From: Nageia nagi
Lineage: Eukaryota > Plantae > Pinophyta
DNA: 64,000 bases
Reading direction: 5' to 3'
Assembly (NCBI GenBank): GCA_050084985.1
Contig: JBITNC010000001.1
Location: 158,224,001-158,288,000, forward strand
The notes beneath the pieces are model-generated. The model was not told the DNA's origin. It ran no database searches and worked only from the letters and a program-made list of their open reading frames with translations. Numbering within the stretch: position 1 is the first letter of the stretch; every line of letters starts with the position of its first letter. Shown one piece after another: positions 3,001 to 56,405 of the stretch. A program made the position numbers and the translations under genes.

Positions 3001-3783
3001 ATCTAAGTATATATCAAACATCTTGCAGAAAATTGGAATGGAGGAGTGTAGATATGCTACAATCTCTTCTGGAATCACTATTTTCCTAAGCTTCAACTCT
3101 CAATTAGCTAATGCTATAGCTTACAGGCAATTAATTAGTAGTCTTTTGTATTTGACTATATCCAAGCTAGATATTACCTTTGCAATGAATTTGATGGCAT
3201 GATTCATGCTGAAACTTTATGTTGAGCACCTCAATGTTGTTAAGCAAATCTTGAGGTATGTTTCAAGATCAAGGCTCTTGCTCTCAAGTATTCCAAGTTG
3301 CCCTTATTTATTCTCTTTGGATTCTTAAATTTTGATTATGGGGGAGAAAGACATGATAAGAAGTTAACCTCTGTGTATGTATTTAGCATTGGTTCAGGTG
3401 CTATCTCTTGGGCTTCCAAAAAGTAGCCTACTATTTATCTATCCACCACAAAAGTCAAATATCATGCCATGTCTATTACAACTTAAGAAGCCATTTGGCT
3501 AAGGCATATTCTAATAGAAATTGGATATGAGTAAGGTGGCTCATCTTTGATCTCTTTAGATAATCAATCAGCTATTTCTTTAGCTAAGAATCTAATGTTC
3601 CATTAGAGAGAAAAACATGTAGAAATCCATGCCCATTTTATCAAAAAAAAGTTTCTTGATGGCATCATACACCTAGAGTATTGTCCATCCACCTTGAACT
3701 TTGTTGATTTGTTTACCAAGCCCATCCTAAAAGCTTAATTTTGTAAGCTTAGGGATGCTATTGGGTTGGTGAAGTTGCCCTAA
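1..3783 (+). pseudogene. Disrupted copia gag-pol polyprotein
   Basis: ORF-track fragments 952-1377, 1426-1692, 1753-2148, 2149-2352 and 2804-3202 are consecutive pieces of copia PR/INT/RT broken by premature stops. Confidence 0.93.
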
Positions 3784-5369: not shown

Positions 5370-7125
5370 ATGCTTCCTCATTTTGCATACATGTATATTA
5401 GGGCATTCATAACAACATCATTCTATGGAAAACCATTTTCAATTACTCTTTGATGGATTTCCATATATTCTTCTAAATCTCCCATGGTGGCACATATCAT
5501 AAGAATGATGGTAGAGGTTATAGAGTTGGGTTTTACACCTAACAATTACATCTACCTAAAAGTCTTTAGGGTCTTTTTAGAAAATCCATGTTGTGCATAT
5601 CCTACATTATTTTGAATCACCAATAATCTCCATAAGAATATTTTCCATATTTGAAATGACAAAATCTGTTTGCATCCCTCATAACCATGCCCCTTGCAAC
5701 AATATTGGAGATAAACTTGGTTGTAATATCATAGTCATTTCTTACTCAAAGGTTCTTCAAAAATCTATGCTGGCATAGAATAAATTCTTTATCACTAACC
5801 TTCATATCATGTGTTAGCACATGTATTATATTTGGAATATACCTCATTATCTTCATCTCACTCAATGATTCATCCTATGAATTATGCAATGAGACTCACT
5901 TATGTTATTAAATTATTTTCAACCCTCATCCACTAGACATGCATGGTTGCATGTATGTAAAACACATAAAAGGTTATGTTTCTAGGGGTGGTTCAAAGAG
6001 TTTAAAGGAATCCCTACTATAACCATGAATTACATATCCTATGATCATTGTTTTCCATGAAAATATGTCTGCAACATGCATCTTGCCAAAGAAGTATCGG
6101 GCCTTATGTATTCTTCTACATTTTGCATACATGTCTATCAAGGCACTCAAAACCACTATTGTATTTATTTCATACTCAAAGGTTATTCAAAACTCTAATA
6201 ATAGTTTCAAGAGGAATCTTCAACAACTTGAACATAGTTGCCAACTTTTCACTATTTTGGCAAAGAAGCAATTCTTTATCATCAACCTCCACATCATGCA
6301 ATGCAAGTATTGTATTTGGAATATATCCTATTATATTTATCTCACTCGATAAGTTCTCTAATTTTCCATAGATATCTAGTGTTTTTGGGTGTAATCTATC
6401 TCCTATAAGAAAAGCATGTACTCTTTTATCAACTTCAATCCAACCACATCCAAGTATCTTCTTGATTTCTCTATCTTTCATCAATGTCCTTACTCTTTGG
6501 GCATCATCCTAACTGCCCAATTCAGCATTCCTTATAGCAATATCCCTTGCAACAATCTTGAAGATAAACTTGGTTGAAGTAATATACTTGAAGGTTTTTC
6601 ACAATTTTAATAATAATTCCAAGGGGGTTGTTTAACAAACCAAATACAATTACCAACTTTTCACTATGTTGGTAGAGAAGAAATTATTTATCATAAACCT
6701 CCACATCATGCAATGCAGGTATTGTATTTGGAATATACCCCGTTGCCTTCATCTCACTCAATAATTTCTCCAAATTTTTATAGATCTCTCATATTTATGG
6801 GTGTGATTTGTCTCCTACAAGAAAATCATGTACACTTTTATCAACTTCAACTCAACTATATCTTGGTATCTTCTTGATTCCTCCATCTTTCATCAATGAA
6901 TTTCATAGCTCCTTCAAGATAGCCTCCATGACCAAGAAGGTCAATAATGCATGTATAATGATTCATCTCAAGAACAATGCAATAAGATTCAATCTTGTTG
7001 TTAAAGTATTTACAACCCTCATCCATAAGACTTGCATGGTTGCATGTAAGTAAATGCTTACAACGATCATGTTGTTAGGTTTGGTTCCTAAGTGCTCCAT
7101 GAAATCAAAGAGTTTAAGGGCATAA
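5370..7125 (-). pseudogene. Scrambled PLS-class PPR / E+/DYW pseudogene fragments
   Basis: PPR motifs (VLSALIDMYAKC..IHKAR.FF.KM...DIFSWKTMIIGYVIHG), PG-box (IKKILGCGWIEV..RVHAF.IGDR.HP), and a DYW terminus VARGMVMRDANRFCHFKYGKYSYGDYW* with stop at 5617-5619. Many stops and deletions. Confidence 0.9.
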
Positions 7126-7441
7126 TGTTATGAACCAAATTCCCAAAATAGCATAAAATCACAAGAGAAAGAGCTCAACGCCTTGAATAAGAGATAAAAT
7201 TAGTAATAAGCCACTTCGAGGGGACAACCTCCTTTACATCACATCAAATACACAACAATAGACAATCCAAATGATAATACCTCCTTAGTATATATAGGAG
7301 TCCAAGGGGTGCCACTATAATGAAAGGACACTAGCCGGCATAACAATAATAATGTAATGGAATAACAATAACCATAGTGGGCTTCTATGGGACACATAAT
7401 AACAATATATGGGCTACATGAGTAGTATAGGGGACCTAACA
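7126..7441 (-). repeat. 3' LTR of chromovirus
   Basis: TGTTA...TAACA termini; 13 mismatches in 316 bp versus the 5' LTR by manual count; PPT (GAAAGAGAGGGGCA on minus strand) at 7442-7455. Confidence 0.97.
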
Positions 7442-7470
7442 TGCCCCTCTCTTTCAAAAAAATGTTGTCC

Positions 7471-10400
7471 TCAACATTTGAGTAGTTTTGGATGCTTCTG
7501 TAGAAAATTCTCATCTTCCCATGTGGAATCTTCAGTAGGTAGGTTCTTCCACTTAATGAGATACTCTAAAATTGATTGATTTCTTAGCTTACAGATTCTT
7601 GATTCAGTGATTACTTCTAGCTCCAATATAATTTTCCCTTCCTTGTCGAGTTCTGGAAGTGTAGTTTGAACTGGGATCTTGTCACCTATAACCTTCTTTA
7701 AGCATGAAACATGAAAAATTAGGTGTACTTGCAAAGAAGCCGGAAGCTCCAATTTGTATGCCATACTACCAATGTTTTGCAATACCTTATAAGGCCCATA
7801 GTACTTGGGAGATAGTTTGTTATCCTTCTTAGATTGCTTGAGGGACATCTATTTGTATGGTTGTAGCCATAAAAACACCCAATCACCCACTTCAAAACTT
7901 CTTTCACTATGATGTTGATCTACTTGTTGTTTCATTCGATTCTGTGCAAAGGTCAGGTTATCCTTTAAGAGTTGGAGAACTTGTTGTTGATGCTCGATGT
8001 GATCCTCCACTGCTTGAACCTTTGATTTGTCTCTTATATATGATGTGATGGATGGTGGATGATATCCATAAAGTGCCATAAATGGGGTCATTTTTACTAC
8101 GATATGGAAGGAAGTGTTATACCACCATTCTACCAAAGATAACCACTTGACCCATTGTGTTTGTTTATCAGATACAAAGTAATGAAGATATCCTTCCAAA
8201 CATTTGTTCACTATCTCAGTTTGCCCATCAGATTGAGGATGATAAGATGAGCTATGAGCCAATTGAGTACCGAGATAAGAAAATAATTCTATCCAAAAAT
8301 TCCCAGTGAAAATGGGATCTCTATCACTTACAATAATCTTTGGGTTTCCATGTAATTTTTGAACTATCTCCATGAATGCAGTAGCGACTATACTAGCTTT
8401 GAAGGGATGGGATACTGCACAAAAGTGTGCATACTTGGTAAGTCTATCAACAACCACCATGATGACACTCTTTTCTTCATACTTGGGTAGACTTGTGATA
8501 AAATCCATTGAGACTTCCTCCCAACGTTGACTTGGAATGGGTAATGGTTGTAAAAGACTTGGGGTCTTGATTGTCTCAACTTTATTTTATTGGAAAACCA
8601 AACATTCTGCCATACACTTTTGGATATCAGATTTAAGGCCATCCCAAAAAAATTCCTTCTTAACTTTGTGGTAAGTTTTTAAAACTCTTGAGTGCCCTCC
8701 TAAAGGAGAGGTGTGTAATTCCAAAAGAACCTTTTATTTGAGTTGGGATTCTTACATAAATATAAGCGATCCTTGTACCACAAAGAATCATTTTTCCAAT
8801 TGAATGTATCAAACACACAAAGATCTTGTTGCATCTTTTGAATGAGTGTCCACATCTCCTCATCATTCCTCCATTCATCCCTTGCTTCAGTTATCCACTC
8901 AGGTTGGAGAATTGAAATTACGCATATCAATGCCTCAACATCCTCATCCTTTCTTGAGAGTGCATCGACCATAACATTTTGCTTCCCTTTTTTATAAATG
9001 ATTTCAAAGTCATAACCCAACATCTTTGTGACCCATTTTTGTTGCTCTTCTGAAGATAGTCTTTATTCTAAGAAGTATTTAAGACTATCATGATCTGTTT
9101 TGACCTTGAAGTGTCTTCCCATTAGATAGGGATGCCATTTCTTCAAGGCATGTAGTATTGCCATCATTTCCTTCTCATAAATAGGTTTGTTTAAATTCTT
9201 TCCCTTTATTGGATGAATCTCAAAGGCAATGGGTCTTCCATTTTGCATTAAAACAACACCAATGCCATTTCCTGAGGCATCACATTCCATAATAAAAGTT
9301 TTTGTGAAGTCTGGTGTAGCTAATACAAGAGCTTTGCACATTTCTTCTTTAAGATTTTCAAAGGCCTTAGTTGCTTCTAGAGTCCAAGAAAATGCATCTT
9401 TCTTTAGTAATGTTGTTAGAGGTGCAATGATTCACCCATAATTCTTAACAAACTTGCGATAATACCCTGTCAACCCCAAAAATCCTCTAAAGTGCCTTAA
9501 GGTTGTGGGAAGTCTCCATTCCTTGATGGCTTTAATTTTGTTAGGGTCTGGCTTAACACCCTCATGAGACATGATATGACCCAAATATTCCACCTCATGT
9601 ACCCTAAAGAAACATTTGGATGGTTTTGCATACAATTGTTGTGCCTCCAATAGTTTGAGCACCCTGTCAACATGTTGAATATGATCTTCCCAAGACTTGC
9701 TGTAGATTAGTATATCATTAAAGAATACTAACATAAATTTTCTAAGGAAGGGTTTGAAAATAGAATTCATCAAACTTTGAAAAGTGAAAGGTGCATTAGT
9801 AAGGCCAAAGGGCATGACCAAGAATTCATAATGACCTTCATGAGTTTTGAATGCTATTTTCAGAATGTCTTTTATCTTCATTCTAATTTGATGATATCCC
9901 GAGCGAAGATCTAGCTTGGTGAAGTATTTTGCTCCATGTAATTCATCCAACAATTCAACAATGATAGGAATGGGAAATTTATCTTTAATAGTGAGCTTGT
10001 TTATCTCTCTATAATCTAGACACATGCGCCATGCTCCCTCCTTCTTAAGCACCATTACTACTGGGGAAGAGAAAGAACTTTGGCTTGGTCGAATTATACC
10101 TGTTTCTAGCATTTCTACAATCATACGTTCAATTTCACTCTTCTAGGCATATGGATATCTGTAAGGTCTGATGTTGGGAGGAACACTTCCTGGAATTAAG
10201 TTAATACCATGATCATGATCTCGATTAGGGGGGAGACCTTTGGGAGTATCAAATACCTTGGGATACTTATCAATGACTTTCTAAAGATCTAGAGAATTGC
10301 CTAGCTTAGATGGTTGGACATCTAGTGAGCATAATTGTATAATTACACCTCTTCTTTGCTTCCTCAAAAGTTTTGTCATACCATTGGAGCTAATTATCTT

Positions 10401-11900
10401 ACAATCTTTCGCTTCGTTACCCCTTAATTCAAACTCTTTTCCTTCCCAAGAAAATTTCATGAAAAGTTCTTTAAAATTAAAAGCCACTGTTCCCAATGAT
10501 TGTAACCATTGGACCCCTAAGATAATATCAGCAGCACCCATTAGAATGGCAATCATTGGACTTTTTAGTAAATATTCCCCCATGGTTAGATTGATATTAT
10601 GAGACTTCTCTGAGCAATTTATAGTTCCTCCATCTGCAACCATCACTTGAAACTCTGGCGCTGGATATATGAAGCAATTCAAATCTTTGGCTATCTTGGA
10701 ATGAATAAAATTATGTGTACTACCAGAGTCAATCAACACTATTACCTTTTTCTTCTTGATATATCCTTCTATCTTAAGAGTTTGAGGAGCAGTAATTCTA
10801 GCCAATGCATTACAAGATATGGTGGGAGTCATTTTTTCAGTAGTAATCTCTTCTAATTCTTCGGGTGTGGATGATTTTTCTTCTTCTTCTTCTTCCTCTT
10901 CACATTCTATGTAGAATAATTTCTTCTCCCCACACTTATGTCCTTTAATGTACTTGTTATCACAATTGAAGCATAGACCCTTTGCTTATCTTTCATCCAT
11001 TTGTTGAGGTGTCAACCTTGTAGGTTTAGGTAAGTGAGAAGAAGGAACATTATTTTCTTTATAGGTGTTAGAGGGAAAACTTTTAGTAGCCATTGCCATA
11101 TTTTTACTTTCAACCTTCCTTTCCATCCTAAAAGCCATCTCTAAGGATGTTGGTTCAAACAGATGCACCTCATGTTGAATGTTATCCTTTAAGGTTCCCA
11201 TAAAGAGATCCAACAATCTATCACTTGGTATGTCATTCACTCTAAGAATCAACTTTTGAAATTGTTGAATGTGCTCCATCACTGAACCTTTTTGCCTTAG
11301 ATTTGTCAATTGAGTAAAGAAGGAATTATTCATTACATCCTCATGGTAGGCTATCAATTCCTCTGTAAAAATGGACCAAGATATAATAGAATCCTTTTTA
11401 TGTTCACAAAGCCATTAGTACCATACAACCTACTCATGCTCTAGATACAAGGATGCAATAGTTACTTTTTATGATGTTGGTACTTGGTGTAGATCAAAAA
11501 AATGCTCCATTTGAAATATCCAAGTGATGGGGTCCTTTCCATAAAACTTCCTCATGTCTATCTTGGGGAGTTGGATTCCCCTTGAGAACCATGTTTGATT
11601 ACTTCCATTAGTAGAAGCATATCCTCCTGAATTAGGCTTATTAATGAAGGGTTTATCTCCTTGAACAATATCATTATTTTCCTGATAACCCTGGGCCATA
11701 TCAACATCTTTAGGAATCTTTCCCTCTAGGTTTTGTATGAGTTGAAAAATCTTTTCCATATTTTGATCCATATTAGTCACCAATTCTTCCCTCAAACTGA
11801 TTAAATCAATTGATCTTACCATCCCTTTTGTCAAATCCCTTTTTAACTCCTCCAAATAACCTTTTTTTACATACCATTTAACCAATTCTTCCAATTGGGA
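7471..11900 (-). pseudogene. Chromovirus gag-pol (disrupted)
   Basis: ORF-track pieces 11469-11894 and 10986-11357 (gag), 10281-10832 (protease), 9432-10124 (RT), 9063-9341 (RNase H), 7849-8508 (integrase), 7471-7848 (chromodomain). Confidence 0.95.
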
Positions 11901-13264
11901 TATTCAGAAGGATATGTCTTCACTTTATGCTATAGTCATGGATGAACCCTCTGTAGGTCTAGGTGGTGTAGCAAGTTTTTTCAGTGGCATTTTGACTGAG
12001 TATTACTGTGGAGTAGGAATTTTCCAAATGGTTTAGTCAAAGGTCCTCACAAGAGTATCTAGTTCTCATAAACCACGATATACCGTAGGGTCCAACAATA
12101 GTACTCGACCCAATATTTTAGAGCTCCAACCAAAGAGGATAGACCGTACCCTTGGTCGTACTACCTGACTACCTTTTGGTACATGTGGGCAGTCTCCCCG
12201 AGTGATGTTCTCAATGTATTGCAAAAAAAGGATGGTCAAAAGGTTAACTTGGTTGGTTTTGGGATTCTAGGGGGTCTCCCTATACACGTAAGGTACGTGG
12301 GAGCTCAAATCTATGATAATGCTATCTAATGCACAACCATTTGAAAAGGGCCCTTGCTAATATACTCACAGTACGTGAGGAAATCCTAAAGGACCTCTCT
12401 ATATACCATGTACATGCATGAGCATGATGGCCTCTCTATATACTGAAAGGTATACGTGAGAGAATCCAACAGTGGCCTAAGCGATATACTGCGAGTACGT
12501 TGTAGGAGACCACAATTCCCTGGGATGCAATGCTGGCAAAGTAATGATAGCTCCTATGTTTAAAGATGCTATAACATATATATACCTATAAGACTCCCAT
12601 TTTTATCCTCTTTCCAATAGCTTTTGAATCACCCCAAATAGACCTTCCAATCAAAATATATGCAAATTTAAAAAATTGTACCTTTTTAAATTGTGATTTG
12701 GAGACTATTCTATTGTCTGAGCTTCTGACTGATGTAAATCTAAAATTTCTAACCTTTAAAGTTTGAAATTTCTACCTATGGTAGCCTCATATGTCTTCTT
12801 TTCAATGCCATAGATTTCATCAAATTCTGATATTCCAAGAGGAAATGGCTGCAACTATCCCAAAATGTGCTAATTTTTGGATTTTTCATAAGAGCGAACT
12901 TGTATGAAGTGCAATGTGTCACCTATTATTCCTAGACCTTAAAAATTATACTAGATAAACTTTAGTTTGTACCCTAACCAATATAATAGGTTTCACATAG
13001 TTTGGAGCTGTAAAACTTTAGATATACACTTTTTAGCTAGAACACCTATTTTAGACCTGCTTTTGAGACTAGTCATAAACCCTAACTTCCCTTGAGTGTA
13101 AATTGCAAAATATAGTGAATTAGGAGCTGAAATTTTAACTAAAACTTCTTTGGTATGTTTTCTAAAAACCCAATAAATTTTAGAATCTAAAACCTTGTGA
13201 AATAAAATTGGTAATGAAAATGCCACGATGACTAGTTTTGAGTAGTGAAACCGTAGAATCATCT

Positions 13265-13276
13265 GCTCTGATACCA
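13265..13276 (-). other. Primer binding site (tRNA-iMet)
   Basis: Minus strand reads TGGTATCAGAGC, 2 nt from the LTR end. Confidence 0.95.
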
Positions 13277-13278
13277 AA

Positions 13279-13594
13279 TGTTATGAACCAAATTCCCAAA
13301 ATAGCATAAAATCATAAGAGAAAGAGCTCAATTCCTTGAATAAGAGATAAAATCAGCAATAAGCCACTTCAAGGGGGCAACCTCCTTTACATCATATCAA
13401 ATACACAACAATAGATAATCCAAATGATAATACCTCCTTAGTATATATAGGAGTCCAAGGGGTGCCACTACAATGAAAGGACACTAGCTGACATAACAAT
13501 AATAATGTAATGGAATAAAAATAACCATAGTGGGCTTCTATGGGACACATAATAACAATATATGGGCTACATGAGTAGTATAGGGGACCTAACA
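13279..13594 (-). repeat. 5' LTR of chromovirus
   Basis: Direct repeat of 7126-7441; adjacent PBS. Confidence 0.97.
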
Positions 13595-14020: not shown

Positions 14021-14124
14021 AATAATAAATTAATTAATAATTTAACAATAACATCATTACATAATTTAATAATTACAATAATATAATAATCATTTATATA
14101 ATAATTAATAATTAATAGTATTAT

Positions 14125-14540
14125 GAATTGATGGATAGGGGAGTTGGAGAGGTAGGTAGTTCAAAGTTATCGGATATGGGAGGACTAGGTTAAAAACTCT
14201 CTACCCCTAAAAGTTGAAATGTACCTAAAATCCTATTGAGTTGATGGTAGGTGTGGATAAGGTCGGGATCATGTCCTAGGTGGATTTTGATGATGTGGAT
14301 GCCCCTCAATCGTGACTCTAAGCTTAAGAGTTCATGGTGCCCTGTATTAAGGGATAAAAACTCCAACTGTGGGTTGAGTTGGTTACATGCAGACCTTGTT
14401 GTGTCCTAAGTCTTGTATTCAATTCTCACCAGCCATGACATACATTATACTTCCCATACAATTGTCCCATTGACCGCTCTTGGTCTCCCGTGGACATTAA
14501 TAAACTTTCTTTCTTCTTTCTTTCTTTCCAACAAAAAAAA
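14125..14540 (+). mobile_element. tRNA-derived SINE family 1 (contains nested SINE-2), 12-bp TSD TAATAGTATTAT
   Basis: Degenerate A/B-box-like motifs (TTGGAGAGGTAGGT; AGGTTAAAAACTC); body homologous to 45321-45538; A8 tail at 14533-14540; TSD at 14113-14124 and 14541-14552. Confidence 0.75.
14368..14526 (+). mobile_element. tRNA-headed SINE family 2 with RTE-X-LINE-type 3' end, putative TSD TCCAAC
   Basis: A-box-like TGGGTTGAGTTGGTTA and B-box-like GTATTCAATTCTCACC, then CCCATTGACCGCTCTTGGTC..GGAC and a (TTTC)n tail that closely match the LINE 3' end at 29190-29250 (minus). TCCAAC at 14362-14367 and 14527-14532. Confidence 0.75.
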
Positions 14541-14699
14541 TAATAGTATTATAATATAATAATCATTAATTAATAAATTATTAAATAAATATATAATAAA
14601 TAATTCATTTATTTTTTTAAATAAATTTTTTTCGACATTATTAGCGACTCTAATTCCAATGCCTATCACGTATGTGAAGCACCATGAAAGATCTCAAAA

Positions 14700-25200: not shown

Positions 25201-28200
25201 ATGGCTTCCTCCATGCTTTCCAGCTAGGTTTGCATTGTTTTCCTAGTAAGAGCAGACTCCTTCCTTTTCAGCTTCTTCCCTATTGGAGTCATAGCGGGCG
25301 ATCTAGATTTTTTTTCTTTGAGTTTGAGTCCTTAGAGCCATCTATGCTTCTGTTAGAGACCTCTTTTGGAGATTCCTTCTTTTGTTTTGACCTTCAATGA
25401 GAACCCTCTTCAACAAGTTTTTTCCCCTTGGAAGAGAATGCCTTAAGGACATGTTGTCCATATTTTTTACTCCTCATTGCCTCTCTTTTTAGAGAAGGAA
25501 GGGTCCTTGGTGTCCTTTGATGTTTCCTTCTCTTCGAGTGATTTCGTGTCTTCATTAAACTCTCCTGCAACGAGATTTCCCGAATCTAACTTGGTTGTCA
25601 AAGGTGAATCAAAGGGGGTCTACGAGCTTGGGTCTGACTCGTTGGAAGAAGAGTATGCAATTAGTTTGTTACGACTTGGTTTGGCTATAGTCGACTTAGC
25701 TTCCTCATGCCTAAATTAACAATGTGAGAAGAACAACATGCTTTGGAGCCATCAAAGGGGGTCTATGAGCTTGGGTCCAACTTGTTGGAAGAAGAATATG
25801 CAATTAGTTTGCTATGACTTGGTTTGGTTATCGCCGACTTAGCTTTCTCATGCCTAAATTAACAATGTGAGAAGAACAACATGCTTTGGAGCCATCAACT
25901 TCCCCATTTGCATTGCCATGGTGGATTTCTCCACTAATTTGAAAAAGAAAGAGCAGATGTTCATAAATTGATTCCCCTAAATGTGGTTCATGAAGCCCAC
26001 ATGAAATCTCCTCACAACGTCTTGGCTCTTGTCTAGAGTGAGGAATTTGCATGATGACTACAACAACTCTCCTCCATGGTTTTAGAAGCGAATCCCATTG
26101 GTAACCATATGAAAGGTAGACTAATGGCTTGCTTGACTCTCCATCTTGTTTGCAAAAGATATCAATTTCATTCTTTAACAAGTTTTTTTCCATCAGTAAG
26201 TTGATACTCTTTGCTTCCAACCTTGAAACCTACACCAACATCTTCTTTGAAATTCAGAATTTAACCCCATGCGCAAAAACTTTCCTGTCCTTCCAAGAGC
26301 AGGCTAAGGTGGTGGCCAATTTCATGTACAACCCCACCTCTCCATAATGGCCTTTTCTTCCCTTTTAGTTGCAAAGATGCAAGTTCCATCATCCTTGTAG
26401 CTAGGGAAACAAACACAAAGTGAACAAGTGACAAAAAATGAATGCATGAATCGTTTATCACCTAGAAGATTTAATGCAATCGCGTGGGGTGTTGGGATTG
26501 CTACTCCATGCAATGAAGAGACCATTGGATGCCACCTTCGCATGATCCCATCTATGCTCTCAATTGCTCCATGTCAGATCATGATGGATTTTGGGGTACA
26601 TAACTTCCATTTTACCTGATGAGTAATGCCACCCAATTTTTCATTTGTATCAATGTCCAATGAAGTGTTGTCAAGCCGACATTGTCTACCAACTTGCCCA
26701 ATCATACAAATATTGCCACCTTGGGAAAAATCAACTTGCCAATCCATGAACTTTGAAGTCTCCAATGGTCCCTTTAAGAGATGCATACTAACTAAATATA
26801 GGGAACTTGTTGGCCAATAAGCCAAAGGCTTCTATTTGGGTGTCTTGAGATACCTCCCATCCATTTTGTCAAGTATTACTAGGAGGTTGTATTCCAAAGG
26901 CTTCTAAAGGGTTCTCTTTCCAAATAGAATCATCTTCCTGGGGAAGCTATTGATTTGCAGGTAGTCCGCTACCTTATTTCCTTCCCTGTAAGCATGTTTA
27001 ATTTGATATTCTGTCAATTCAAAAAACCAAGATCTAATCTCATCGAAGAGCCTTTTTGATTGCAACTCGGTTCTTGGGAGCGCTTGAGAGTGTTGATTAT
27101 GTTGAGTGAGTTCCCCTCAATGATGTTTCTTTGAAATATTTCTTCTTTCAAGAGTTTTACCCCCTGATGGAGTGCTTTAACTTCAAAAAAATGACTAGAT
27201 TTGGGGCTCTATGTTCTTGACAAAGGCTAGGAAGAGCTCTCCTTTGTCATTGCGGATAATTCCTCTTGCCCCCGAGTCTCTAGGATTTCCTTTGGAGGCT
27301 CCATCAAAGTTTAACTGCACCCATCCCACTGGCGGGGCATCCATTTGACCAGAGATCTGTCTTCCTTCACCTTCACAATATGGATCTCTTTGTGAGTCAT
27401 TTCCCACACTAGGACGTGCATTCTTTCTAGAAGATCATGGAAGCAATTCTTTTTTTGACATATCAATTGGTGACAGCTTTCTTTAGCTGCAGCTAAGCAA
27501 ATAGTTTTTAGGTCTGGACAAATTATGAAACCGTATTTTGGTTGATTGTTGTTTTACTAGACAATAATTAATGGTGTAATAAGTGATAAGTTATTAACAC
27601 ACGAGGAGGTGATTAATTAATGCTTTTGCTATTACAATACTCCTTGAATTGATTATGGAATATATGGCTGCATAGGAGCTTAGCATTAGTCAATAACAAG
27701 AGAGCATATTATGTCATGCATGGCTTGTAAATGACAAAACATGCTTTTTTGTATTGTTATATATGTGTTATGTCATTATTTTTAACTTGATTCTGGCTGC
27801 ATTACTATATTATTATTAGTTTTTGACTGATTAGGTTTGAATGAATGTTCTGCAGTGTGCATATTATCTGTTAGCTTATCTGCGATCAAATCTCTATGTA
27901 ATGGATATTAACTATGTATTGTGTTTCCTGATGTAGGTAGAAAAGCAAAACCAATGTCTTGAAGTAACTGACTCTCTTCCCGGTTTGTTTCTTTCTTCTT
28001 TTTTGGTTTTGTAAATATCTCATTCATGTATAATCCTTAGTTTTTAAAGCAATAATGTGTTAATGGCCTTACAAATTATTTGCTAATAATGCAATAGGTA
28101 CATCATCAGGTCCAGAGTCAAAGACACCCATGCCAGAGAAGAAATTGATTGAGTTCATCCTTGATAAGCTACAAAAGTAAGTAGAATCTTGTTACCTTAG

Positions 28201-31200
28201 CTAACTTAGATCACTCGTGGAATATTTCTTGGTTTCATTGCTACAGCTTCCAAGTAACATGTGATTGATTCATTAGCTGTTTTTCCAACAGGAAAGACAC
28301 ATATGGTGTGTTTTCTGAACCTGTGGACCCAGAAGAGGTATGCTAGTTGTTGAAACTGAAATTTCAGATTGAAAACTAATGTTAAGATGAATAATGAAAT
28401 ATGTAAACATTGTTGGGATGACACAAAAATTCTTCATGATGTCAGCTTCCAGACTATCATGAAGTTATACAAAATCCCATGGATTTTGGCACGATACGGA
28501 AAAAGCTTGGAAAGAGAGTCTATGCCTGCTTAGAAGAATTGGAGGTTAGTCAAATAGATGAAATTTAAAATTTGCATGGAAGAAGTTTTGTTAAAATTTG
28601 TCAATATATGTTCTTTCTTGTCTGCAAATAAGTGTATTTGTTACGTCCTAAGTTATCTTTGGGTTCAATTTTATGACAGTTAGTATCCTTCCTATTTACA
28701 AATAAAATTGTAGTAGTTACTGGTCTTTGACTCAAAACCATCACTTTCATGAGGAGACATTTTTTTAAATATGAATGTTAAGTTACTTTAAATGCTGACT
28801 AATTTAAATTTACCAAGGCTACATTGTCTGTAGACAGCTTCTTGTTTCTATTTGGGGGATTTGATGTTTCCGTGTTAGTATAATTATTTTGTAGGTCACA
28901 ATATGAACCTGTCTTATGTTGACCATTATGTTCAGAATTTACTATTTAGTCCATGTTTAAGATAAGTCCAGCAACACTTGAAGTTTTATAGTAAGCAATT
29001 CACAGATTATATTGGTGTATGATAATGTACCACAACTCTAAACAGATGAGAGTTGCTGCTGAAATTGAAGGGGATCTACTTGGGTCTGCTATAACTTATA
29101 AGTGATCAAGTTGAGAACTTAGGCAATCTTGATGAAATTTTATAGTGATTAAATCCATTCTGGAATTCAGAGATGCATTTTGCATTGTGTGGAGAAAGAA
29201 AGAAAGTGTTAAAGTCCTTGGGTGACCAAAAGCGGTCAATGGGATTGTTGAGTACAAGCATGATCAATATACCAATAAAGCCCCTATAGGGCTCACTCTA
29301 TGAAAGGCATACAAACAACTGAAATGGCATAAAGCAAATACAAACACATTCGTGAAAAGGATGGTCCAAACCTTGAAGAAAGGAGGGATGAAAGTCTAAT
29401 ATAGTCTAGGGAAGCTCATCCTAGGCCTCTTAGTCAAGGAGCCTACAGGAACTATCTGCCTCGAAGAGAGGTCTCATTGGTCTTTAAGGGTCATGCCTGT
29501 GGAACTACTGTTGGTGGGGAAGAAGGATGTGATTTCTCGAGTCCTCAATGGAGCATGAAAGTCCTGAAGGCATCTTTTGGTGCAGCACATGGGAAGAAGA
29601 GGGTCATCATGATGTCTCTTATGCTCCCCTTCAATAGGATTAATAGGAGAAGCTCAAAAGAAAGATGTAATGTTGTGGTCACCTGTTGGATGTTGAGTGC
29701 TAGCTAGAAGATGCTTCCGTAGAAGGAAGGTCTTATAGAGATAGAGAGCTAAGCAATGCTGATCATGTTGTTGGAGAAATGTAGACAAGAAGCCGTGTGA
29801 ATCTTAGAAGAGACAATGGTATCTACCTTTGATCTCATAATAGATTGAGCATTGAAAGATGAAGTGGTCTTAGGATTCATTCTCAAGAAAATGAAGTCAA
29901 CAAACTCGCAAGTCTCAATCTAGATTGTGGTTCATTTTGATCCTCGATGGGGCAAACCCAAAACTATCCAAGGAACATTCTCAAGCCAAGGGGAAGATGC
30001 AAGCTAGTGTAGCCAGGTGGGATGATCAATCCTCCATCGATTTGGAGATACTGCTTTGAATAATTTACTAGTGAGATCCAAGTGCATTGGATGAAGGCCT
30101 TGAATACTTTGCCGCAAATCTCAGTCAAGGAATCCACTAAGGTACTAGACAAATCCCTCATGGGTTTAGGTCATTTGTCTGGAGAAAAACCAAATCTTGA
30201 AAGTGTCTTGGTAACCTTGGCAAACCAACAATTGTAGTAAACTTGTGTGGCTAGGTTGATCGAGGAAGCTAGGGCTCTATTAGGTAGTCTAGTTGAATGT
30301 CTCCATGATCAGATAATATGTGCAAGTGATGGAGGAAGAGGACTAAGGAAGCAATGGCTTGCACTTAAAGAGGCTAGCAACCAAACTTTGCAAGCATGAT
30401 AGCGTGAGGTATCGCTATCTTGCTACGAATTGATCAAGAGAGTGTACTGACCAAGATCCCTTCTATTGGGTTGCTACTCTCAAATTGGGGTCCCAAACCT
30501 CAACTCCATATAATATCGTGGGAGTGACAAGAGTTTGAAAGAGTCGTAACTTGGATGGTATGTCCTTGAAGTGCATTTGAACGCATTGCTGTGACGTCCC
30601 CTTTGTGCTTCGGACAACTTTAGTGGATTCTTGAGAATCCTATTGTAATGTAGGTTTACTTTGTATTCTTCTTTCATGTTGTAACCCGAGATAGGAGACT
30701 TATCGAGTCATTGACCCCCATTATGAGCCCTAAGTGAGATGTCTCCCTCATGTGGATTAGCATAGGGGATTTATTAGTATAAATGGCTTATCATGCATGT
30801 GTCAGGCCAAGAGTGGCCCCATGTCCACCCAGGAGACCCAACAACACCTTGAGACCCACGTCAACCTTCTCGTGACTTCTATGCATGCGTGGCACCCTCA
30901 GGATATGCGCTATCTGTTTGAGCTTAAGGAGGACCCATGTGGCATGTTTGGACACTTGAACACCCACGTTGGGCATCATGGCCCCCCCTAGCTGGTCAAC
31001 GTTGGAAAAAAAGGGGGATTGGTGACTTCGAGGTAGGAACACAACATGAGATTATAAATAGACCTTGGAGGCTCATTTGAGGATAGCTATAGATGATTAT
31101 TACTTCTTATATTTGACTTCTGGACAACAAGTCTTAGCCAGGGCTGAACAATTCTACCTAGACATAGTGTCTAGAGGGTGATTGGGCTGAGGCATCCCAG

Positions 31201-34200
31201 TTATCTTGACTTGGTATAGCGTCAAGTCCATCCGGTAGTATCCGAGGATTCCATTCCTACCATTCAGTTGGATTTCCAATGTTCGAGGAGAGCCCCTTCG
31301 ATGGGCAGAAGTTGAGGGCTGAGGGAGTGAATCTGTCCCATTGTTTCGAGTTGTATTTGAGAGTGATTGTGTGTATCTAGTCGTCTTGAAGAGGCCACGA
31401 TTGACATTTGGCTGATGTAATTGTCTCTATTGAATAAATATATCATTGAGGATTCCTATCTCATTTATTGTGTTGTGGATGCCATTGCATGTATGCGTTG
31501 ATATTGAATGAATGCTCTATCTATATCATTCTTGTGTAAGGATTGGTAATTGATCAAGGGAGTCAGACGTTGCCATTCTGGTATCATTTGTGACTAGATC
31601 TGGAGATCAAGGTACTCTTGGCTTGCCGTCCTTTGTGGTTGATTGAGGGAAGGTGCATTTGGCACAAGTGTTCATTTGGAACATTACAATTGCCTCTCTA
31701 AGGTAGAAACCATCGCATAATCTTGATAGTCTAGGTGGGGTGGTCTCAATGATATCATCACAGAAGGTGATCTAGGTTTGGTCTAACTTGGCTCTCAAAA
31801 CATTGAAGGCGAGAATCTTAGTCTTACTAAGGTTCACCCTAAGCTCTTGTCTGGTATTGAAGGCATCTAATACATCCACCAAACTGTATAAACCCTCAAT
31901 TGAGTGGGAAAGTAGACCAATATCGTTTGCAAAGAGGAGGATGGGTACTCAACAGCCATGTAGGAGGCAGCCCACCTCACAGTCAATGGACTCAAGGATA
32001 AAAGACTCCAGCTCGTTTATATAGAGGCCAAATAGAGTTGAAGCCTAATATTGAGATTTCCAGTTATAATATTAAACCTTCACAATAAGAAGTGCTTGCC
32101 CCTTTTGTGTACATGTCTATTTTACTTATCATGAATTGCACTTCGATTTGAGAATTATCTTTTTGTTATATTTTGACTTGATAAGTTCTAGAAATCTGTG
32201 TAACCTTGGAAGGTCATGGAAATGTTTTTTGTTTTTGTTTTTTCTAATATTTTCTTATTGTGTTTGTAATGGACTCCTTTCTTTCTATCACATAAGGTTG
32301 CATTCAAGTGCTAAAAACATTAGGCTTGACATAGGACGCTTCCAAGTTGAATATTTCCAATTGTGACATGAAATATTTAATTATTGAACTTTACAAGGCA
32401 GCATTATGATCTTCAAAGTGTTTGGCAAACCTGTTTCATGAAATCTAATTAGATTAACATTTTGAATCACACTTCATGAACCTTCATTAAGACAGCGTCA
32501 AGAGGGACAGGGTTTGGATCATTGAATCAATTCTCCTAAGTAAAGAAAAAGACAGCAGTGAGGAGGAAAAAGACAGCCTTAGAGCCATAGTTTGATAGTT
32601 ATGATTTTGGCATTTTGCTACTATGATTTCAGTACTACTGTATATGTCATTTGAGTATTTCTGATTTGAGATTTCAGATCTATCATTATGTACTAGACTG
32701 ATTCAGATTTAATGACATTATGGCATTATGATCATTGATTATGGGCTGCTCATTTTAATATTATGATTCATGCTTAATTTCTAATTTAAGTTCCAAATGT
32801 TATATACATGATTGAATTGATAATAATAATGAATTTGAAACAATGAAATTTAAAAAATCTAAAAATTCTGAAATTTTTTACTAGTATTATACTAGCCGTT
32901 CCCCTTGTTGATTCTGAGGCATTCCCTAAAAATGAACTCTGTCGTTCCCTTTATGGGGAATGCATTCCAACGTTCCCTAAAAATGACCTCCGTTGTTCCC
33001 TTTATTGGGAATGCATTCCTGCCCCCTGCTCCCCTGTTCCTGAGGCCTTGTGGAACCTTGCGATTAATATATTTTCATTCCCTAAACATAATAAATTGTA
33101 CATATTTTAATATATTGTTCTTTATTTTGTGTTTACAAAGTGGTGTATCTGACTTTTTTTTTTCTTCCTGAATAGTTTTTTGCTAAAACCCTAGGTTTTT
33201 GGTTTGAAGCTCCATGTTTTTAATTCTTTCAAAACCCTAATTACTAAGACTCCTCTTTTTCCAAATTAGAGTACCAGCATTTTGTCAAACTCCATTTTTT
33301 TTCACCCATGTTTGCACTACATTTGGATCATTTGAACCAAAGGATCTGAAACTATCACCAAACCAAGAAGTGCATCTATAATTCAAATATTAGTGAATGA
33401 TGATGAGGACCTAAACAATGCTAGAATAACTATAGATGAGGACATTTTTGATTCAGATATGCATCTTTCAATTAGTTTAAACAGAAAGTATGATGATGAT
33501 GTAGAAGAAGATTAAAATCAGCATAATAGTCCATAGAATGATTGTCGAAAATGACAACAACAATGAAACAGAATATCAGGATGTTCAATCTTAAGAGAAT
33601 CCTAATCTCAGATAAAGTAGTGTAAAACCAATAATGAATGATGAAGTTGAGCATGAACTACTCTTCCAATCAAAGAAAGAATCAAACTCATGCAATATAT
33701 ATTCATCGATGAGGATTTCCTTCATAGCTTTGTAATATTACCTAGATCTCAAATGATAATTCTTGACCTATACAAGGCATGTGGTGTCTTTGATCTATCT
33801 CCTTCACACATGCGAAAGTGATTCAACCAATAGTTTAAAGGATATTTTATTTTGTGATGTTCTTAGTTCAACTTCAATTCTTGCAAAACATACAAAACAA
33901 TTATTTCATACTCTTCGTCCCAAAATGTACCTACCCTAGGGCTCATATCCCATACATGGGCATTTTGGATCCTCTATCCTAGACTGCCAATGTTTTGGTA
34001 CCTATGCACCAAATCATTCCTTACCCTATTTCATCAAATCCAACCTTTCTACCATCTCTGTCTATCCAATTAACAGTAGGAATTACCATATCATGGTTTG
34101 CCCCTAAAAACAATGGCAAAAGCCAATGCTTGAGACACCAAATAGTAATAGAGGCAAAAAAATAGGGTATTTTCAGAACTGTTAATTCCAAGACAGCAAC

Positions 34201-44362: not shown

Positions 44363-45320
44363 TTTGCATTAATGAATTATTGGATTTTACTTACTTTAAG
44401 CATGCCAAATTAGAAATCCAGGCTTCATTTGAATATCTGAAGTCGAAATTTATGGTGAACGTAAAATTATTGACACAGGAGACGGGTTTTCCTTGAAAAG
44501 GGCCCATACTGTTGTAATAGAGTTGTACAAATCTGTACCAATTTGTTAACATTAAGGGGGTTTCCATGTACTATTATTAATATTATTGATGAGCTAACAT
44601 AATTTTAGGCATTTTTTAATCTAAAATAATGTGCAAGTAGCTTTAAGATTTTTTTGACCATGCAAAAAAATATTGAACACAAATGTTTTTAAAGCTTCGT
44701 ATGAGAAAATAATGTGTCTTTTTGCATGGAAAGGCTAAAAAAAAACAAATAGGAATTGCAATATGGTGGTCACTGTCCAATTTTGCTGTATAACTTATTG
44801 CTGGATGAAATTTCATTATTCAAACAAAAACAAATATAACTCGTTTTATGCTTGGTGTATTAATTTTAGTGGGGTCTACTTGTCATTATCTTGTTCAAAT
44901 CAACGGTTGAAGTGATCTTATATGTCAAAAGACCCTAGGGATTTCCTATTAATTCAATGGATCAATTTTTTTTTTTGGCTAAGGCTAAAGTTTCATTTTA
45001 GTTTGTAGTCTGAAGAATTCTCTACTTTATTAAGTTAGCGTTACAGCTTATATTGCTATACTTTATAAGGCCCCTTGATCTTATATCATAGATAAGGTGA
45101 TCCTAGTGGAGGGTCGACCTCTTGACAAACCAACATGCAGAGGGCCTTTGTTGCCATGACATGAACGGTGTTCTTAAATGATTAACAATCTCAACTATTC
45201 AACTCAGGTTGACCAATTTAATCCAGTGAATTAATATAGGATGATCAGATCTTGTAGTTTGTTTTTATGACATAGGATGAAAATGCTTATCTCAGATCTA
45301 ATGGGAAAACATCAAAATTG

Positions 45321-51991: not shown

Positions 51992-52139
51992 GATAAACCA
52001 TACCTAAAAATACTACATGAAAAAAATTGTAATTTTCATAATCTAGATACCATTAAAGATGAGACTTATTTTCTTCTTATTTGCCCATTTTATAAAGATA
52101 TTAGATAAGCATATAATAATATTTGTAATGACAATATGA

Positions 52140-53600
52140 TCCATGAATTAAAATTGAAATTTAATATTAATGTCCATAGATGACCAAAAATGGTCAATGG
52201 GATTGTAGAAAAAACATATATAACAAAGCCAAGGGAGCACCTAGTACAACTCTAATGTGTAAGATTGAGAAGTGAGAAAAATATGATACATTTAAGTGTG
52301 GCATAAAGCCTACTTATGAAGAGTTAAGAGGCTCCATCAACATTTGAGGTTGAGAAGAAGCTTCTGATGTGACAACTAAAGGAGGTAGGGAGAGAGTTGA
52401 ACTATAACATAAGCAACTCTAAACTCCCAAGATCACATGAAAGCTCACAAATCACATATAAATAACTCACAAAGAAATATCACAAAGATAACTCAAGATG
52501 TAAGTGGTTCCTTCAACTAGAAGTACATCCACTAACTAGATCTCACTTCATACACAAATATGAACTCTTACAATCCTTTTAAACTCATCTCCTAAACACT
52601 ATCCTATAGCATAACTTTACTTCACAAATTGGTGTTTGATCCAAAGAGGGATCCTTCTATTTATAAGCCAATATCCTTTTTGGGATCACCCTTTTACCCA
52701 ATGTACAAAAGCATGACATGCACATCCTTTTACCCAAGGGGCATGCTCATGACATGGAGTGTAAGACAAGTTACATTATCATATTCACTTAAATACTTAA
52801 GGTATCAAATGATACCCTTACGTATTAGTGAACTTACATAGAAGATTATTACAAAACCTTTACAATAATGCATTATACATTCCAACAGGTAGCCATAGTG
52901 GGTTTAACAATAATACACCAATTGATAGTTCTTCTAGAATTTTTTGGGTTCATGTGATGCTTCCAATTAGTAGCTTCCTATGATTGAAGGTAGGATGTGA
53001 TAAGTTTGGAACTTGTTGTATTATATAACTTATCGATGGTCATTTTTTCTTGAGGTAGGTGGCTTCTCTGATATATGTGCGACACATTTTTGGACTTCAT
53101 CATTCATCCATGATTTCAAGGTGTGGGAACCTCTAAATAAGCAATGGAATCACTCTAAAATTTTAAAGTAGATGCAACAAATAAATATAAAATGCTCTTC
53201 AATATCAAGTTTCATGTTGCATATTTTCCATAAGTGTTGGTATCAAGAGATATGGCAATCTATCTCGATATGGAGTTGGTGTGAGCAAAATCTCACTTGG
53301 CCAAGGGGGAAAGAGAGGCCATGAGATATGTGTAGTTTTATGTATTCAAGAATGGTAGTAGCATGGTTCTTTATTTTCATGTAAAACTAAAGATAGTGTG
53401 AGAGCTTTTGTGAGAACAATTTTTTTGGTTCAATCCATGTTGTCCTTAGGTAAGTCACATAGATTTCCTTCCTAATCATTTTGTTGATATCTTTAGTAGC
53501 AGGATTAGAGGTCCTATCCAAGAGTTGAGAGGGAAGTGGTCAATCAATATCTAGGCCTATGGATCATAGGAGATAGGTGGCTTTTGAATATCAACACCAA
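52140..53600 (-). mobile_element. 5'-truncated RTE-X-like LINE (split by a copia A solo LTR)
   Basis: LGQVRFCSHQLHIEID..KICNMKLDIEEHFIFICCIY..FHCLF; 3' stem-loop at 52171-52205 with an AATTTC-like tail. Confidence 0.8.
52389..52887 (-). mobile_element. Solo LTR of copia family A, TSD GGTAG
   Basis: Reverse-complement homolog of 4609-5100; GGTAG at 52384-52388 and 52888-52892; the empty site is visible in the paralogous LINE at ~56125-56165. Confidence 0.92.
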
Positions 53601-55049: not shown

Positions 55050-56405
55050 ACATGAAGACATTTTCATGACTATCTCATAGGGATTGTGCAAGGAGGAAGA
55101 AAGCTCAAATAGAGTTGTCTAAGAAGATTAGTAACCTCATAATCAATAGATTTAAAAGATGCAAATGCAATACTTAGAATATTTTACACTAACCATGTAG
55201 ATGGAGAAACCATTATATTATTTCTTCATGTAACAATTATACTCTAGAGGATCCTCTCTCTTATCACTAATATTTTTGGATCTTAGCTTGTCAATGTGAA
55301 ACTCACATATCAGGTGGTATTTGAGGTTTTGGTAGAGTTTCTTACCTCATTCGAGATAAAATTTGATCCATTATATCCTTATTAGCTTCATATGTACACT
55401 CTAAACATATGTGGTTATAGATTAAAAGAGGAACTAATCTTTCATAGGTCTTAATAGTGTGTTAATTCCCCCATGATATTGCTTCTTTCAACATGCATAT
55501 CAACAACAATCCATTTCTTGATCTCTACCTATATATCTCCCATCTCTCCTCCATGGGTGAGGTTATCCTCTTAGGTGACTTCAATGCTCTCGATGGAGTC
55601 GAACAAGTATTTATCAAGGACCTTACAAAGATTGTGCCTTGCCTTCATGAGCACAACCTTAAGGATTTGGATTTGCTCAAAGTTGAAGTGGACATGGAAA
55701 ATTATACCACAACACATATGAGAAACAATCATTCAAATACTCAATTGATATATTTTCATTATTGGACAATTTTTGATAGGTTATACAAACCAAGGGTTTA
55801 AAAGGAAGTTAAAAAATTTATTTATTTATTTATTTATATAGGAAATTTATTATATGAATGATAGAGTCACATAATATTCACATAGTCAGCGAGTTCCATT
55901 GCTTAGTTAGAGGTGCCCAAACTTTGAAATCATGGATGAATTATGAAGACAAAAAATGAGTTGCACTCTATATCAAAGAAGCCATATGGATTAGAAAAAA
56001 GTGATTTTCGATAAATTCATCAACATAATGAGTTCCAAACTTGTCACATCTTATTTTCAACTTAGGAAACTAAAAATCAAAATCCACATTATCCTTGATG
56101 AATATGGAAGGAATAACCATTAGTGCATTACTACTAAACCCACTAAGCTTACTTCCTCTAGTTAGAACATCATGGGCTCCTTTTCGACATCAAATGATGG
56201 AGGAGCCCCTTGAATCTCTATATGTAGACATTCTACCTCACTTAAGCCTATTGTATTTGATACTCTTTTTTTCTACTTATCACACTTACACATTGAAGGA
56301 GCTCTAGGTGCTCCCTTTCTTTTCTTATATGTGTTTTCTATAGTCCCATTGACCATTTTTTTGGTCACCCATTGACATTAATATCAAATTTCAATTTCAA
56401 TTATA
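55050..56405 (+). mobile_element. Internally deleted RTE-X-like LINE
   Basis: AP-endonuclease NPFLDLY..ISHLSSMGEVILLGDFNA (~55500-55590); C-terminal region and 3'UTR (55880-56405) homologous to 52140-53200; same 3' stem-loop at 56343-56377. Confidence 0.75.

What the first reader, a model, noticed from the sequence alone, without database searches (positions are those of the whole stretch)
14368..14526. Candidate new SINE/LINE partner system: tRNA-headed SINE carrying the 3' end of an RTE-X-like LINE
Seen: a ~160-bp unit with pol III A/B-box-like motifs, then CCCATTGACCGCTCTTGGTC..GGAC and (TTTC)n, flanked by TCCAAC. The same stem-loop and (TTTC)n tail end the intronic LINE at 29190-29250. 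Known: many SINEs hijack a partner LINE through a shared 3' tail, and RTE/RTE-X elements end in microsatellite tails, whereas most described plant SINEs end in poly(A) or simple tails and are attributed to L1. Inference: an RTE-X-mobilised tRNA SINE family, possibly undescribed. It matches the (TTTC)-tail subfamily rather than the AATTTC-tail copies.
Basis: partly seen in the sequence, partly recalled or inferred. Interest (0 to 1): 0.8.

Follow-up and report, generated by a model that had tools for sequence, protein, structure and literature searches.

The report
Conifer SINE with RTE-X-like LINE tail
This 160-base unit is one copy of a short jumping element found at several unrelated places in a conifer genome and a relative; it ends in the same hairpin and TTTC tail as a local group of long retrotransposons (likely of the RTE-X class) and likely borrows their enzyme to copy itself, a familiar trick with a partner class I did not find reported.

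Summary
Unit 14368-14526 lies between two TCCAAC copies. Its last ~50 nt match the 3' ends of three LINE copies in the window (best 84% over 51 nt, E 7e-10). Head and tail are linked elsewhere too: six public-run contigs bridge them, at three or more loci with unlike flanks, in two of four organisms tried. The copy sits in the end of an older poly(A) retroposon whose paralogs lack it. Its promoter boxes are decayed, but other copies carry the two bases that complete a B box. The host is a conifer. The LINE group encodes endonuclease-RT-CCHC, with relatives in green algae, fern and yew; it is no closer to human L1 than to R2. RTE-X is the best label, by elimination only. The copy at 29191-32104 is dead and probably not the exact partner. 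Not shown: tRNA of origin, Pol III transcription, copy number, 3' flanks of other copies, absence from Repbase/Dfam/SINEBase. Verdict: a real, probably undescribed conifer SINE of the known tail-sharing kind; the partner class may be new.

The parts
14113..14124 (+). Left 12-bp target-site duplication of the older host retroposon
   Evidence: exact repeat at 14541-14552
14125..14540 (+). Host: short, probably 5'-truncated poly(A)-tailed retroposon (likely an L1 3' end; class inferred) with the SINE inserted just before its A tail
   Evidence: 12-bp TSD and A tail; paralog at 45388-45503, 73%; multi-copy in runs, and 4 X2 contigs run from 14358 through CTCCAAC into an A run without the SINE (table 7)
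14362..14367 (+). Left copy of the SINE's 6-bp target-site duplication TCCAAC
   Evidence: present once in the empty paralogs
14368..14432 (+). SINE head, tRNA-like by box layout (3' limit approximate)
   Evidence: other copies start aligning at 14364-14374 behind unlike flanks; no ARAGORN or Rfam hit; fold z 0.01
14371..14382 (+). A-box-like motif, only 3 nt from the 5' end
   Evidence: 1 mismatch to a recalled consensus
14417..14426 (+). B box, decayed at both end positions in this copy
   Evidence: 2 mismatches here; other copies read G14417 and C14426
14433..14464 (+). Short linker; its 3' half may also be LINE-derived; tandemly duplicated (43 nt) in some copies
   Evidence: joint 14465->14423 in X7, X5 and X4; 11/25 identity to LINE 29193 here
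14465..14504 (+). LINE-derived 3' segment with hairpin: inner stem 14472-14475/14482-14485, outer stem 14464-14467/14492-14495
   Evidence: (-11.7 kcal/mol, z -2.72)
14505..14526 (+). (TTTC)n-type microsatellite tail, no run of four T
14527..14532 (+). Right copy of TCCAAC
14541..14552 (+). Right 12-bp TSD of the host retroposon
29191..32104 (-). Dead, 5'-truncated LINE copy (RT second half, thumb, C-terminal CCHC-type region, 3' UTR, TTTC tail), antisense in an intron of the bromodomain gene, split by a ~1 kb insertion; limits rest on a possible 6-bp TSD
   Evidence: tblastn of intact relative P0103: 32035-31799, 30693-30475, 29902-29717; stops and frameshifts; ACACAA repeat
29196..29244 (-). 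LINE 3' end homologous to the SINE tail
   Evidence: 84% over 51 nt, E 7.5e-10
52150..53590 (-). Second LINE 3' fragment of the same group, AATTTC-type tail (limits approximate)
55300..56400 (+). Third copy: endonuclease piece followed by C-terminal piece and AATTTC-type tail (internally deleted; limits approximate)

Best explanation
This is a decayed copy of a dispersed conifer SINE whose likely tRNA-derived head would be read by RNA polymerase III and whose 3' hairpin plus TTTC tail, shared with a local LINE group that is likely RTE-X, would be bound by that LINE's endonuclease-reverse transcriptase and copied into new sites. Shown: the head+tail unit at several unlike loci; the shared tail; the insertion into an older retroposon with a 6-bp duplication; the LINE group's endonuclease-RT-CCHC build. 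Inferred: (1) Pol III transcription from the A/B boxes; (2) the LINE hairpin loop's run of four or more T, a Pol III stop signal, was broken by a T-to-C change so the transcript reaches its tail; (3) stringent 3'-end recognition and target-primed reverse transcription by the LINE protein, with the microsatellite regrown by slippage; (4) the clade name; (5) the true donor is a sister subfamily, not copy 29193.
For: Family: 3 of 32 listed pieces and 4 of 16 have 31 or more letters on both sides of 14445. They are 6 distinct contigs (two each in X2, X5, X4; one X2 contig appears in both calls). Depth is zero over the window's own left flank 14348-14359. At least five unlike 5' flanks appear among the listed loose ends. 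One flank is shared between X5 (organism A) and X4 (organism B), so that insertion predates their split. Insertion: empty paralogs of the host and TSD. B box completed in other copies. Tail; hairpin z -1.8 to -2.9 in all 6 tails folded; 87% of cells paired against 13-43% for slid controls. No T4 run in the SINE, T4-T7 in all 6 LINE loops; T at 14479 has only 7 of 699 depth in X4. Most other contigs read A at 14471 (38 in X2, 9 in X4) with no listed change at 14486, giving A-T where all 6 LINE tails have T-A. LINE: intact relative P0103 from Coleochaete has Exo_endo_phos + RVT_1 and no zf-RVT or RNase H family at E<=0.01. It scores 80-82 bits on human L1 ORF2p and 61-85 on R2 proteins. Relatives occur in Chlorella, Klebsormidium, Taxus and Adiantum. 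LINE/RTE-X is reported in Cryptomeria (8.6 Mb, PMC11539532) and Marchantia (10.1101/827881).
Against: No tRNA hit and no stable head fold. The A box lies only 3 nt from the 5' end, short for a Pol III start. Box pairs this good occur 4 times by chance in the window. No covariation in the 7-row alignment (0 two-sided changes), and the A-T versus T-A swap comes from summary tables, not phased reads; about a third of X2 depth keeps T at 14471. The 3' flanks and TSDs of other copies were not seen. Copy number is unmeasured. Organisms C and D gave 0 contigs (the tool warns this can be false). The 3 metagenome loci were all LINE ends without a head, though my pattern fixed T at 14471 and so missed the commoner SINE form. 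The RT tree had no labelled outgroup, and the window's RT sat on a long, weak branch.
Confidence: 0.68

Rival explanations
1. It is a real tail-sharing tRNA SINE, but the partner LINE belongs to another clade (RTE proper, Tx1-like L1, I, L2/Crack or an unnamed green-plant lineage), not RTE-X.
For: The clade was assigned by elimination only. The tree was uninformative. Cryptomeria also has LINE/L1-Tx1 and LINE/I classes. 2 of the 8 atlas rows shown, the lowest-ranked, carry zf-RVT in 18-30% of members. Chlamydomonas SINEX-2_CR has a (CTTT)n tail with a RandI partner (PMC3747384).
Against: P0103 is no closer to L1 ORF2p than to R2 and lacks zf-RVT and RNase H. Flowering-plant RTE ends in (TTG)n or (TTGATG)n and almost all flowering-plant L1 in poly(A) (PMC3747384). 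P0103 ends about 50 residues after the CCHC motif, leaving no room for the second, restriction-like nuclease of RandI/Dualen (feature recalled). The green-algal LINE clades listed in that paper are L1, RandI and RTEX.
Confidence: 0.15
2. The head is not a Pol III promoter but the 5' end of the LINE itself, so the unit is a short internally deleted (bipartite) LINE transcribed like its parent.
For: Internally deleted copies of this LINE group exist (55300-56400; L003). No tRNA hit. The A box is unusually near the 5' end. No full-length LINE was available to compare.
Against: Other copies restore a full B box 34 nt after an A-like box, the spacing of a standard tRNA. The unit has no T4 run while every LINE loop has one. 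The head matches nothing in the three window LINEs or in L001-L003. Kojima 2018 lists bipartite derivatives only for RTE, Ingi, Vingi and R2 (PMC5786205).
Confidence: 0.1
3. The copies are independent template-switch chimeras of a tRNA and a LINE 3' end, or a few segmental duplicates, not a self-propagating family.
For: Few copies were seen, and their TSDs were not. U6-LINE chimeras including U6-RTEX are named in an earlier scan note (e1-8821766; unchecked).
Against: Copies share the non-tRNA linker and the same diagnostic bases and start within about 10 nt of each other, while their flanks differ. A duplicated-linker subform exists in 3 runs.
Confidence: 0.05
4. A 5'-truncated LINE end happens to lie beside an unrelated tRNA-like remnant at this locus only.
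For: The boxes of this copy alone are not significant, and a 6-bp TSD is short.
Against: 6 contigs bridge head and tail elsewhere, and host paralogs lack the whole unit.
Confidence: 0.02

Closest known systems
Stringent plant SINE/LINE pairs: tobacco TS with RTE-1_STu; maize ZmSINE2/ZmSINE3 with LINE1-1_ZM (PMC3472496 passages; PMC3747384 passages and section 21 part 1 of 2)
   Same: tRNA-type head, LINE-derived 3' end with a stem-loop, non-poly(A) tail
   Different: Partners are RTE and L1 clade in flowering plants. The LINE-derived part of TS is ~200 nt against ~40-60 nt here. Tail and the conserved loop/flank bases reported for the monocot pair differ.
Au / Au-like SINEs (PMC6007223 passages; PMC3747384 table)
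   Same: Seed-plant tRNA SINEs, one report from a gymnosperm, moved by a non-L1 LINE through a shared 3' end
   Different: Partner is RTE clade with (GTT)n ends; Au ends in 2-5 T. Here the tail is (TTTC)n behind a GACC/GGTC hairpin. Sequences could not be compared directly.
SINEX-2_CR of Chlamydomonas (PMC3747384 tables)
   Same: (CTTT)n tail, LINE-derived 3' end, green lineage
   Different: Partner is RandI/Dualen and its promoter is listed as unknown. The LINE here has the shorter endonuclease-RT-CCHC build.
LINE/RTE-X of Marchantia and Cryptomeria (10.1101/827881 passages; PMC11539532 passages); RTEX of green algae (PMC3747384 Table 3)
   Same: A non-L1 LINE class present in non-flowering green plants, with microsatellite tails in algae
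   Different: The passages read describe no SINE for it; algal RTEX tails listed are (CA)n, (CAA)n, (CCAT)n, (ACAATG)n, (CTTGTAA)n. Identity of this LINE with those classes is inferred, not tested by sequence.

Membership tests
SINE (SINEBase definition, PMC3531059 passages) | Short (<1 kb), non-coding, interspersed repeat | tested here: met
   159 nt; copies with unlike flanks
SINE (SINEBase definition) | [quoted passage not shown] | not testable with these tools
   No genome held; 9-11 head-covering contigs in one 243-Mb run give no genome count
SINE (SINEBase definition) | Head derived from a Pol III RNA (tRNA, 5S, 7SL) with A and B boxes | tested here: inconclusive
   Box layout and restored B box; no ARAGORN or Rfam hit
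SINE (SINEBase definition) | Transcribed by RNA polymerase III | not testable with these tools
   Only contigs, no raw or small-RNA reads; lack of a T4 run is indirect
SINE | Simple-repeat tail and target-site duplication | tested here: met
   Met for this copy: tail, 6-bp TSD, empty paralogs; TSDs of other copies not seen
Stringent SINE/LINE pair | 3' end homologous to the 3' end of a LINE in the same genome, with stem-loop | tested here: met
Stringent SINE/LINE pair | The LINE protein mobilises the SINE through that tail | not testable with these tools
   Needs a retrotransposition assay
RTEX (RTE-X) clade, for the LINE | RT groups with RTEX references in a phylogeny | tested here: inconclusive
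   Tree without labelled references, long weak branch
RTEX (RTE-X) clade, for the LINE | APE endonuclease + RT without RNase H, microsatellite 3' tail (features partly recalled) | tested here: met
   Shown on relative P0103 and on pieces in the window; not unique to RTEX
RTEX (RTE-X) clade, for the LINE | A separate ORF1 (recalled) | not tested
   No full-length copy available
L1 clade, for the LINE | Close RT similarity to L1 ORF2p, zf-RVT domain, poly(A) tail | tested here: not met
   on relative P0103; tails; no plant L1 control was scored
Plant RTE clade, for the LINE | (TTG)n or (TTGATG)n tail | tested here: not met
   Tails are TTTC or AATTTC; definition from PMC3747384
Au SINE family | Sequence identity to the Au consensus; T2-5 end | tested here: inconclusive
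   Tail differs; consensus not available to align

The most novel reading that the evidence does not exclude
This is the first SINE family shown to depend on an RTE-X LINE, and the first hairpin-type SINE/LINE pair native to conifers. Its tail records both steps of adaptation: a broken T run that lets Pol III read through the LINE hairpin, and a two-sided swap that keeps the stem. The LINE lineage runs from green algae through ferns to conifers, so stringent RTE-X recognition would be an old third route for SINE birth in land plants, beside L1 and RTE.
Probability: 0.35. Interest if true: 0.6.

Novelty: new member of a known kind. Interest (0 to 1): 0.43.

Why it matters
The mechanism, a SINE borrowing a LINE's 3' handle, is textbook. 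What may be new is the partner. The 2013 table of SINE/LINE pairs names no RTEX partner and only three pairs in land plants, and nine paper searches found no conifer SINE with such a tail. If the label holds, RTE-X joins the clades that recognise their RNA by a 3' hairpin, and this 40-nt segment defines a minimal cis signal to test. The family also offers presence/absence markers in conifers, since one insertion is shared between two organisms while two others gave none.

Tried and rejected
No whole genome is held, so no genome-wide count was possible. ARAGORN and Rfam found no tRNA in the head. Run search: no holder is on record as RNA ('no RNA holder listed'), all are contigs. Read laying skipped 14499-14560 as repeat, so 3' junctions were mostly lost; one search showed two X2 3' loose ends with TTTC repeats then unlike letters. 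X8 and X9 laid 0 contigs, which is not proof of absence. Metagenome scan: 3 loci, L001 and L002 being the same place, all LINE ends. Viral contigs: 0 for a head motif; 4 for a tail motif, matching only the 20-21 nt motif and treated as chance. Prokaryote genomes: 0. Word-index search with the decayed RT piece: nothing. Alignments A1 and A2 were misaligned and not used. RT tree of 34 rows (33 of 121 RT regions plus the window piece): no clade call. Atlas look-up of P0103 gave unnamed RT/endonuclease clusters without useful taxa. Pair counts showed no covariation. Earlier scan findings: none for this genome or sequence. Rejected: that 14125-14540 is one composite element (host paralogs lack the SINE, and SINE copies lack the host flank); that LINE 29193 is the working donor (broken, truncated). 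The tRNA of origin is left open. PMC8312256, PMC13477047, PMC8620675, PMC11481361, PMC5753468 and PMC5585668 (passages) gave nothing on a conifer RTE-X SINE.

Full report
Observation. The unit is as described. It runs 14368-14526 between two TCCAAC copies (14362-14367, 14527-14532). A 6-bp repeat with that slack occurs at 2.3% of 20,000 random window sites. Its last ~50 nt match three places in the window: 29244-29196 (-) at 84% over 51 nt, E 7.5e-10, then 52202-52165 (-) and 56340-56383 (+). The core 20-mer has 3 matches against 0.01 expected. The head matches nothing else in the window. An A-box-like motif (14371-14382) and a B-box-like motif (14417-14426) lie 34 nt apart. Scored against recalled consensus motifs, pairs that good occur 4 times in the window. 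ARAGORN and Rfam at E<=10 give nothing, and the head folds no better than shuffles (z 0.01). So the window alone proves the tail, not the head.

Is it a family? No genome is held, so I used public runs. The run search listed 9 contig sets from four coded organisms; I laid 7 of them. On 14200-14560, X2/X1/X7/X5 laid 230/37/26/30 contigs (32 of 329 pieces listed). On 14348-14509, X2/X4/X8/X9 laid 134/16/0/0 (16 of 152 pieces listed). Pieces with 31 or more letters on both sides of 14445 number 3 of 32 and 4 of 16. They are six distinct contigs: X2 14370-14504 and 14372-14509, X5 14367-14481 and 14374-14498, X4 14367-14483 and 14374-14509. Nothing covers the window's own left flank 14348-14359. 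The listed 5' loose ends at 14367-14374 fall into at least five unlike types, and four X2 contigs at 14370 agree with each other only 0.63. The X5 and X4 pieces starting at 14374 share their 5' flank, so they are one locus held by organisms A and B. That leaves at least three independent head-to-tail loci besides this one. The zeros in organisms C and D may be false, as the tool warns. Some copies carry a 43-nt internal duplication (joint 14465->14423 in X7, X5, X4). Copy number and the TSDs of other copies were not obtained.

The insertion event. The SINE sits inside an older element, 14125-14540, which has an A tail and a 12-bp TSD (14113-14124, 14541-14552). A paralog near 45321-45538 has an A tail, a 15-bp TSD and no SINE. 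Four X2 contigs of the host run from 14358 through CTCCAAC straight into an A run. These are paralogous empty sites, and they fix the TSD. The host's class (L1 3' end) is inferred from the A tail and long TSDs.

The head. In other copies 14417 reads G (9 contigs in X2, 3 in X4; nearly all depth) and 14426 reads C (13 and 4 contigs). These are the two mismatches of this copy, so the family carries a full B box at standard tRNA distance from the A-like box. The differences are mostly T/C and A/G, as expected from methyl-cytosine decay (inference). Against: the A box starts only 3 nt from the 5' end, and no tRNA of origin could be assigned.

The tail. All six tails folded form the GACC/GGTC hairpin (z -1.8 to -2.9). 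In the 7-row alignment 87% of cells pair, against 13-43% for slid controls, but there is no two-sided change, and the structure was derived from these sequences. Two hints come from elsewhere. First, all six LINE loops hold T4-T7, a Pol III terminator by established knowledge, while the SINE has no T4 run; the first lies at 14612. T at 14479 has 7 of 699 depth in X4 and 265 of 828 in X2, which includes tail-only contigs. Second, most contigs read A at 14471 (38 in X2, 9 in X4) with no listed change at 14486, an A-T pair where the six LINE tails have T-A; this copy has T-T. The tables are unphased and about a third of X2 depth keeps T, so this is suggestive only. Over the hairpin region the SINE is 32/38 to LINE 29193, 31/38 and 32/40 to the AATTTC copies, and 35/38 to locus L002.

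The LINE. Copy 29191-32104 (-) starts inside the RT, has stops and frameshifts and is split by ~1 kb between residues 777 and 803 of an intact relative. It cannot be the working donor. A metagenome scan gave 3 loci, two of them the same place, all ends of the same LINE group without a head; my pattern fixed T at 14471 and would miss the commoner SINE form. A profile of two C-terminal stretches found 447 proteins at E<=0.001, among them a whole 1128-aa protein from Coleochaete (P0103) and an Adiantum protein. P0103 has Exo_endo_phos and RVT_1 only and ends soon after a CCHC-type motif. It scores 80-82 bits on human L1 ORF2p and 61-85 on R2 proteins; I scored no plant L1 as control. Its RT relatives include Chlorella, Klebsormidium and Taxus proteins. 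An RT tree of 34 rows had no labelled outgroup and left the window piece on a long, weak branch. The host gene's best named relatives are Cryptomeria (60%) and a Gb_-numbered protein I take as Ginkgo (48%), with angiosperms at 28% over less of the query, so the genome is a conifer's. LINE/RTE-X is reported in Cryptomeria (PMC11539532, passages) and Marchantia (10.1101/827881, passages). Flowering-plant RTE ends in (TTG)n or (TTGATG)n and L1 mostly in poly(A); green algae have L1, RandI and RTEX (PMC3747384). RTE-X is thus the best label by elimination, at about 0.75-0.8.

Mechanism. Most likely a master copy is transcribed by Pol III from the internal boxes and reads through the C-interrupted loop into the tail. 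The LINE's endonuclease-RT binds the hairpin, nicks a target and primes reverse transcription at the TTTC repeat, leaving a short TSD. The anatomy, dispersal and shared tail are shown; transcription, binding and clade are inferred from known stringent pairs (PMC3472496).

Comparison and novelty. It works like TS/RTE-1_STu, ZmSINE2/LINE1-1_ZM and Au/RTE, but tail and partner differ from each. The 2013 pair table (PMC3747384 section 21, part 1 of 2) names no RTEX partner. Nine paper searches and passages of thirteen papers showed no conifer SINE with this tail and no RTE-X/SINE pair. The library lacks most subscription papers, no supplements were read, and Repbase, Dfam and SINEBase were not searchable, so 'undescribed' is perhaps 55-60%. 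Verdict: a real SINE family of a known kind, probably new, with a fair chance of being the first RTE-X-dependent one. Interest 0.43.

Noticed in passing
window 14113-14552 and 45306-45553: Two copies of a short poly(A)-tailed retroposon, with 12-bp and 15-bp TSDs; multi-copy in the runs. It could be an L1 3' end or a second short element.
   Followed up: partly
window ~30696-31740: About 1 kb insertion splitting the LINE's RT region; it ends near TGTTGTAACC on the + strand and may be a solo LTR.
   Followed up: no
window 51995-52171 (+): A further, more distant LINE C-terminal CCHC-type fragment on the + strand, tail to tail with the minus-strand copy ending near 52165.
   Followed up: no
window 55300-56400 (+); L003 790-2330 (-): Internally deleted copies of this LINE group (endonuclease piece joined to C-terminal piece and tail); the group may spawn deletion derivatives.
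   Followed up: partly
L002 2557-2604 and 3443-3494: Two LINE tails about 890 nt apart: a short 3'-end copy inserted in the same orientation inside a longer copy of the same group.
   Followed up: no
window 14418-14470 (contigs): Contigs that match only from 14418-14427 onward, and ones with a 43-nt tandem duplication of the linker; possibly subfamilies with a diverged head.
   Followed up: no
window 21449-44270 (+): Bromodomain-protein gene with long, element-filled introns; 60% identical to a Cryptomeria protein over its large exon.
   Followed up: partly
window 7124-13594: Gypsy-type LTR element on the minus strand with 318-nt repeats 96% alike (7124-7441, 13277-13594) and premature stops; copia-type pieces at 913-3202 and 56899-59843.
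   Followed up: no
window 26600-27400 (-): Decayed RNase H-like coding stretch in the same intron, probably a plant L1 3' part (read by eye).
   Followed up: no
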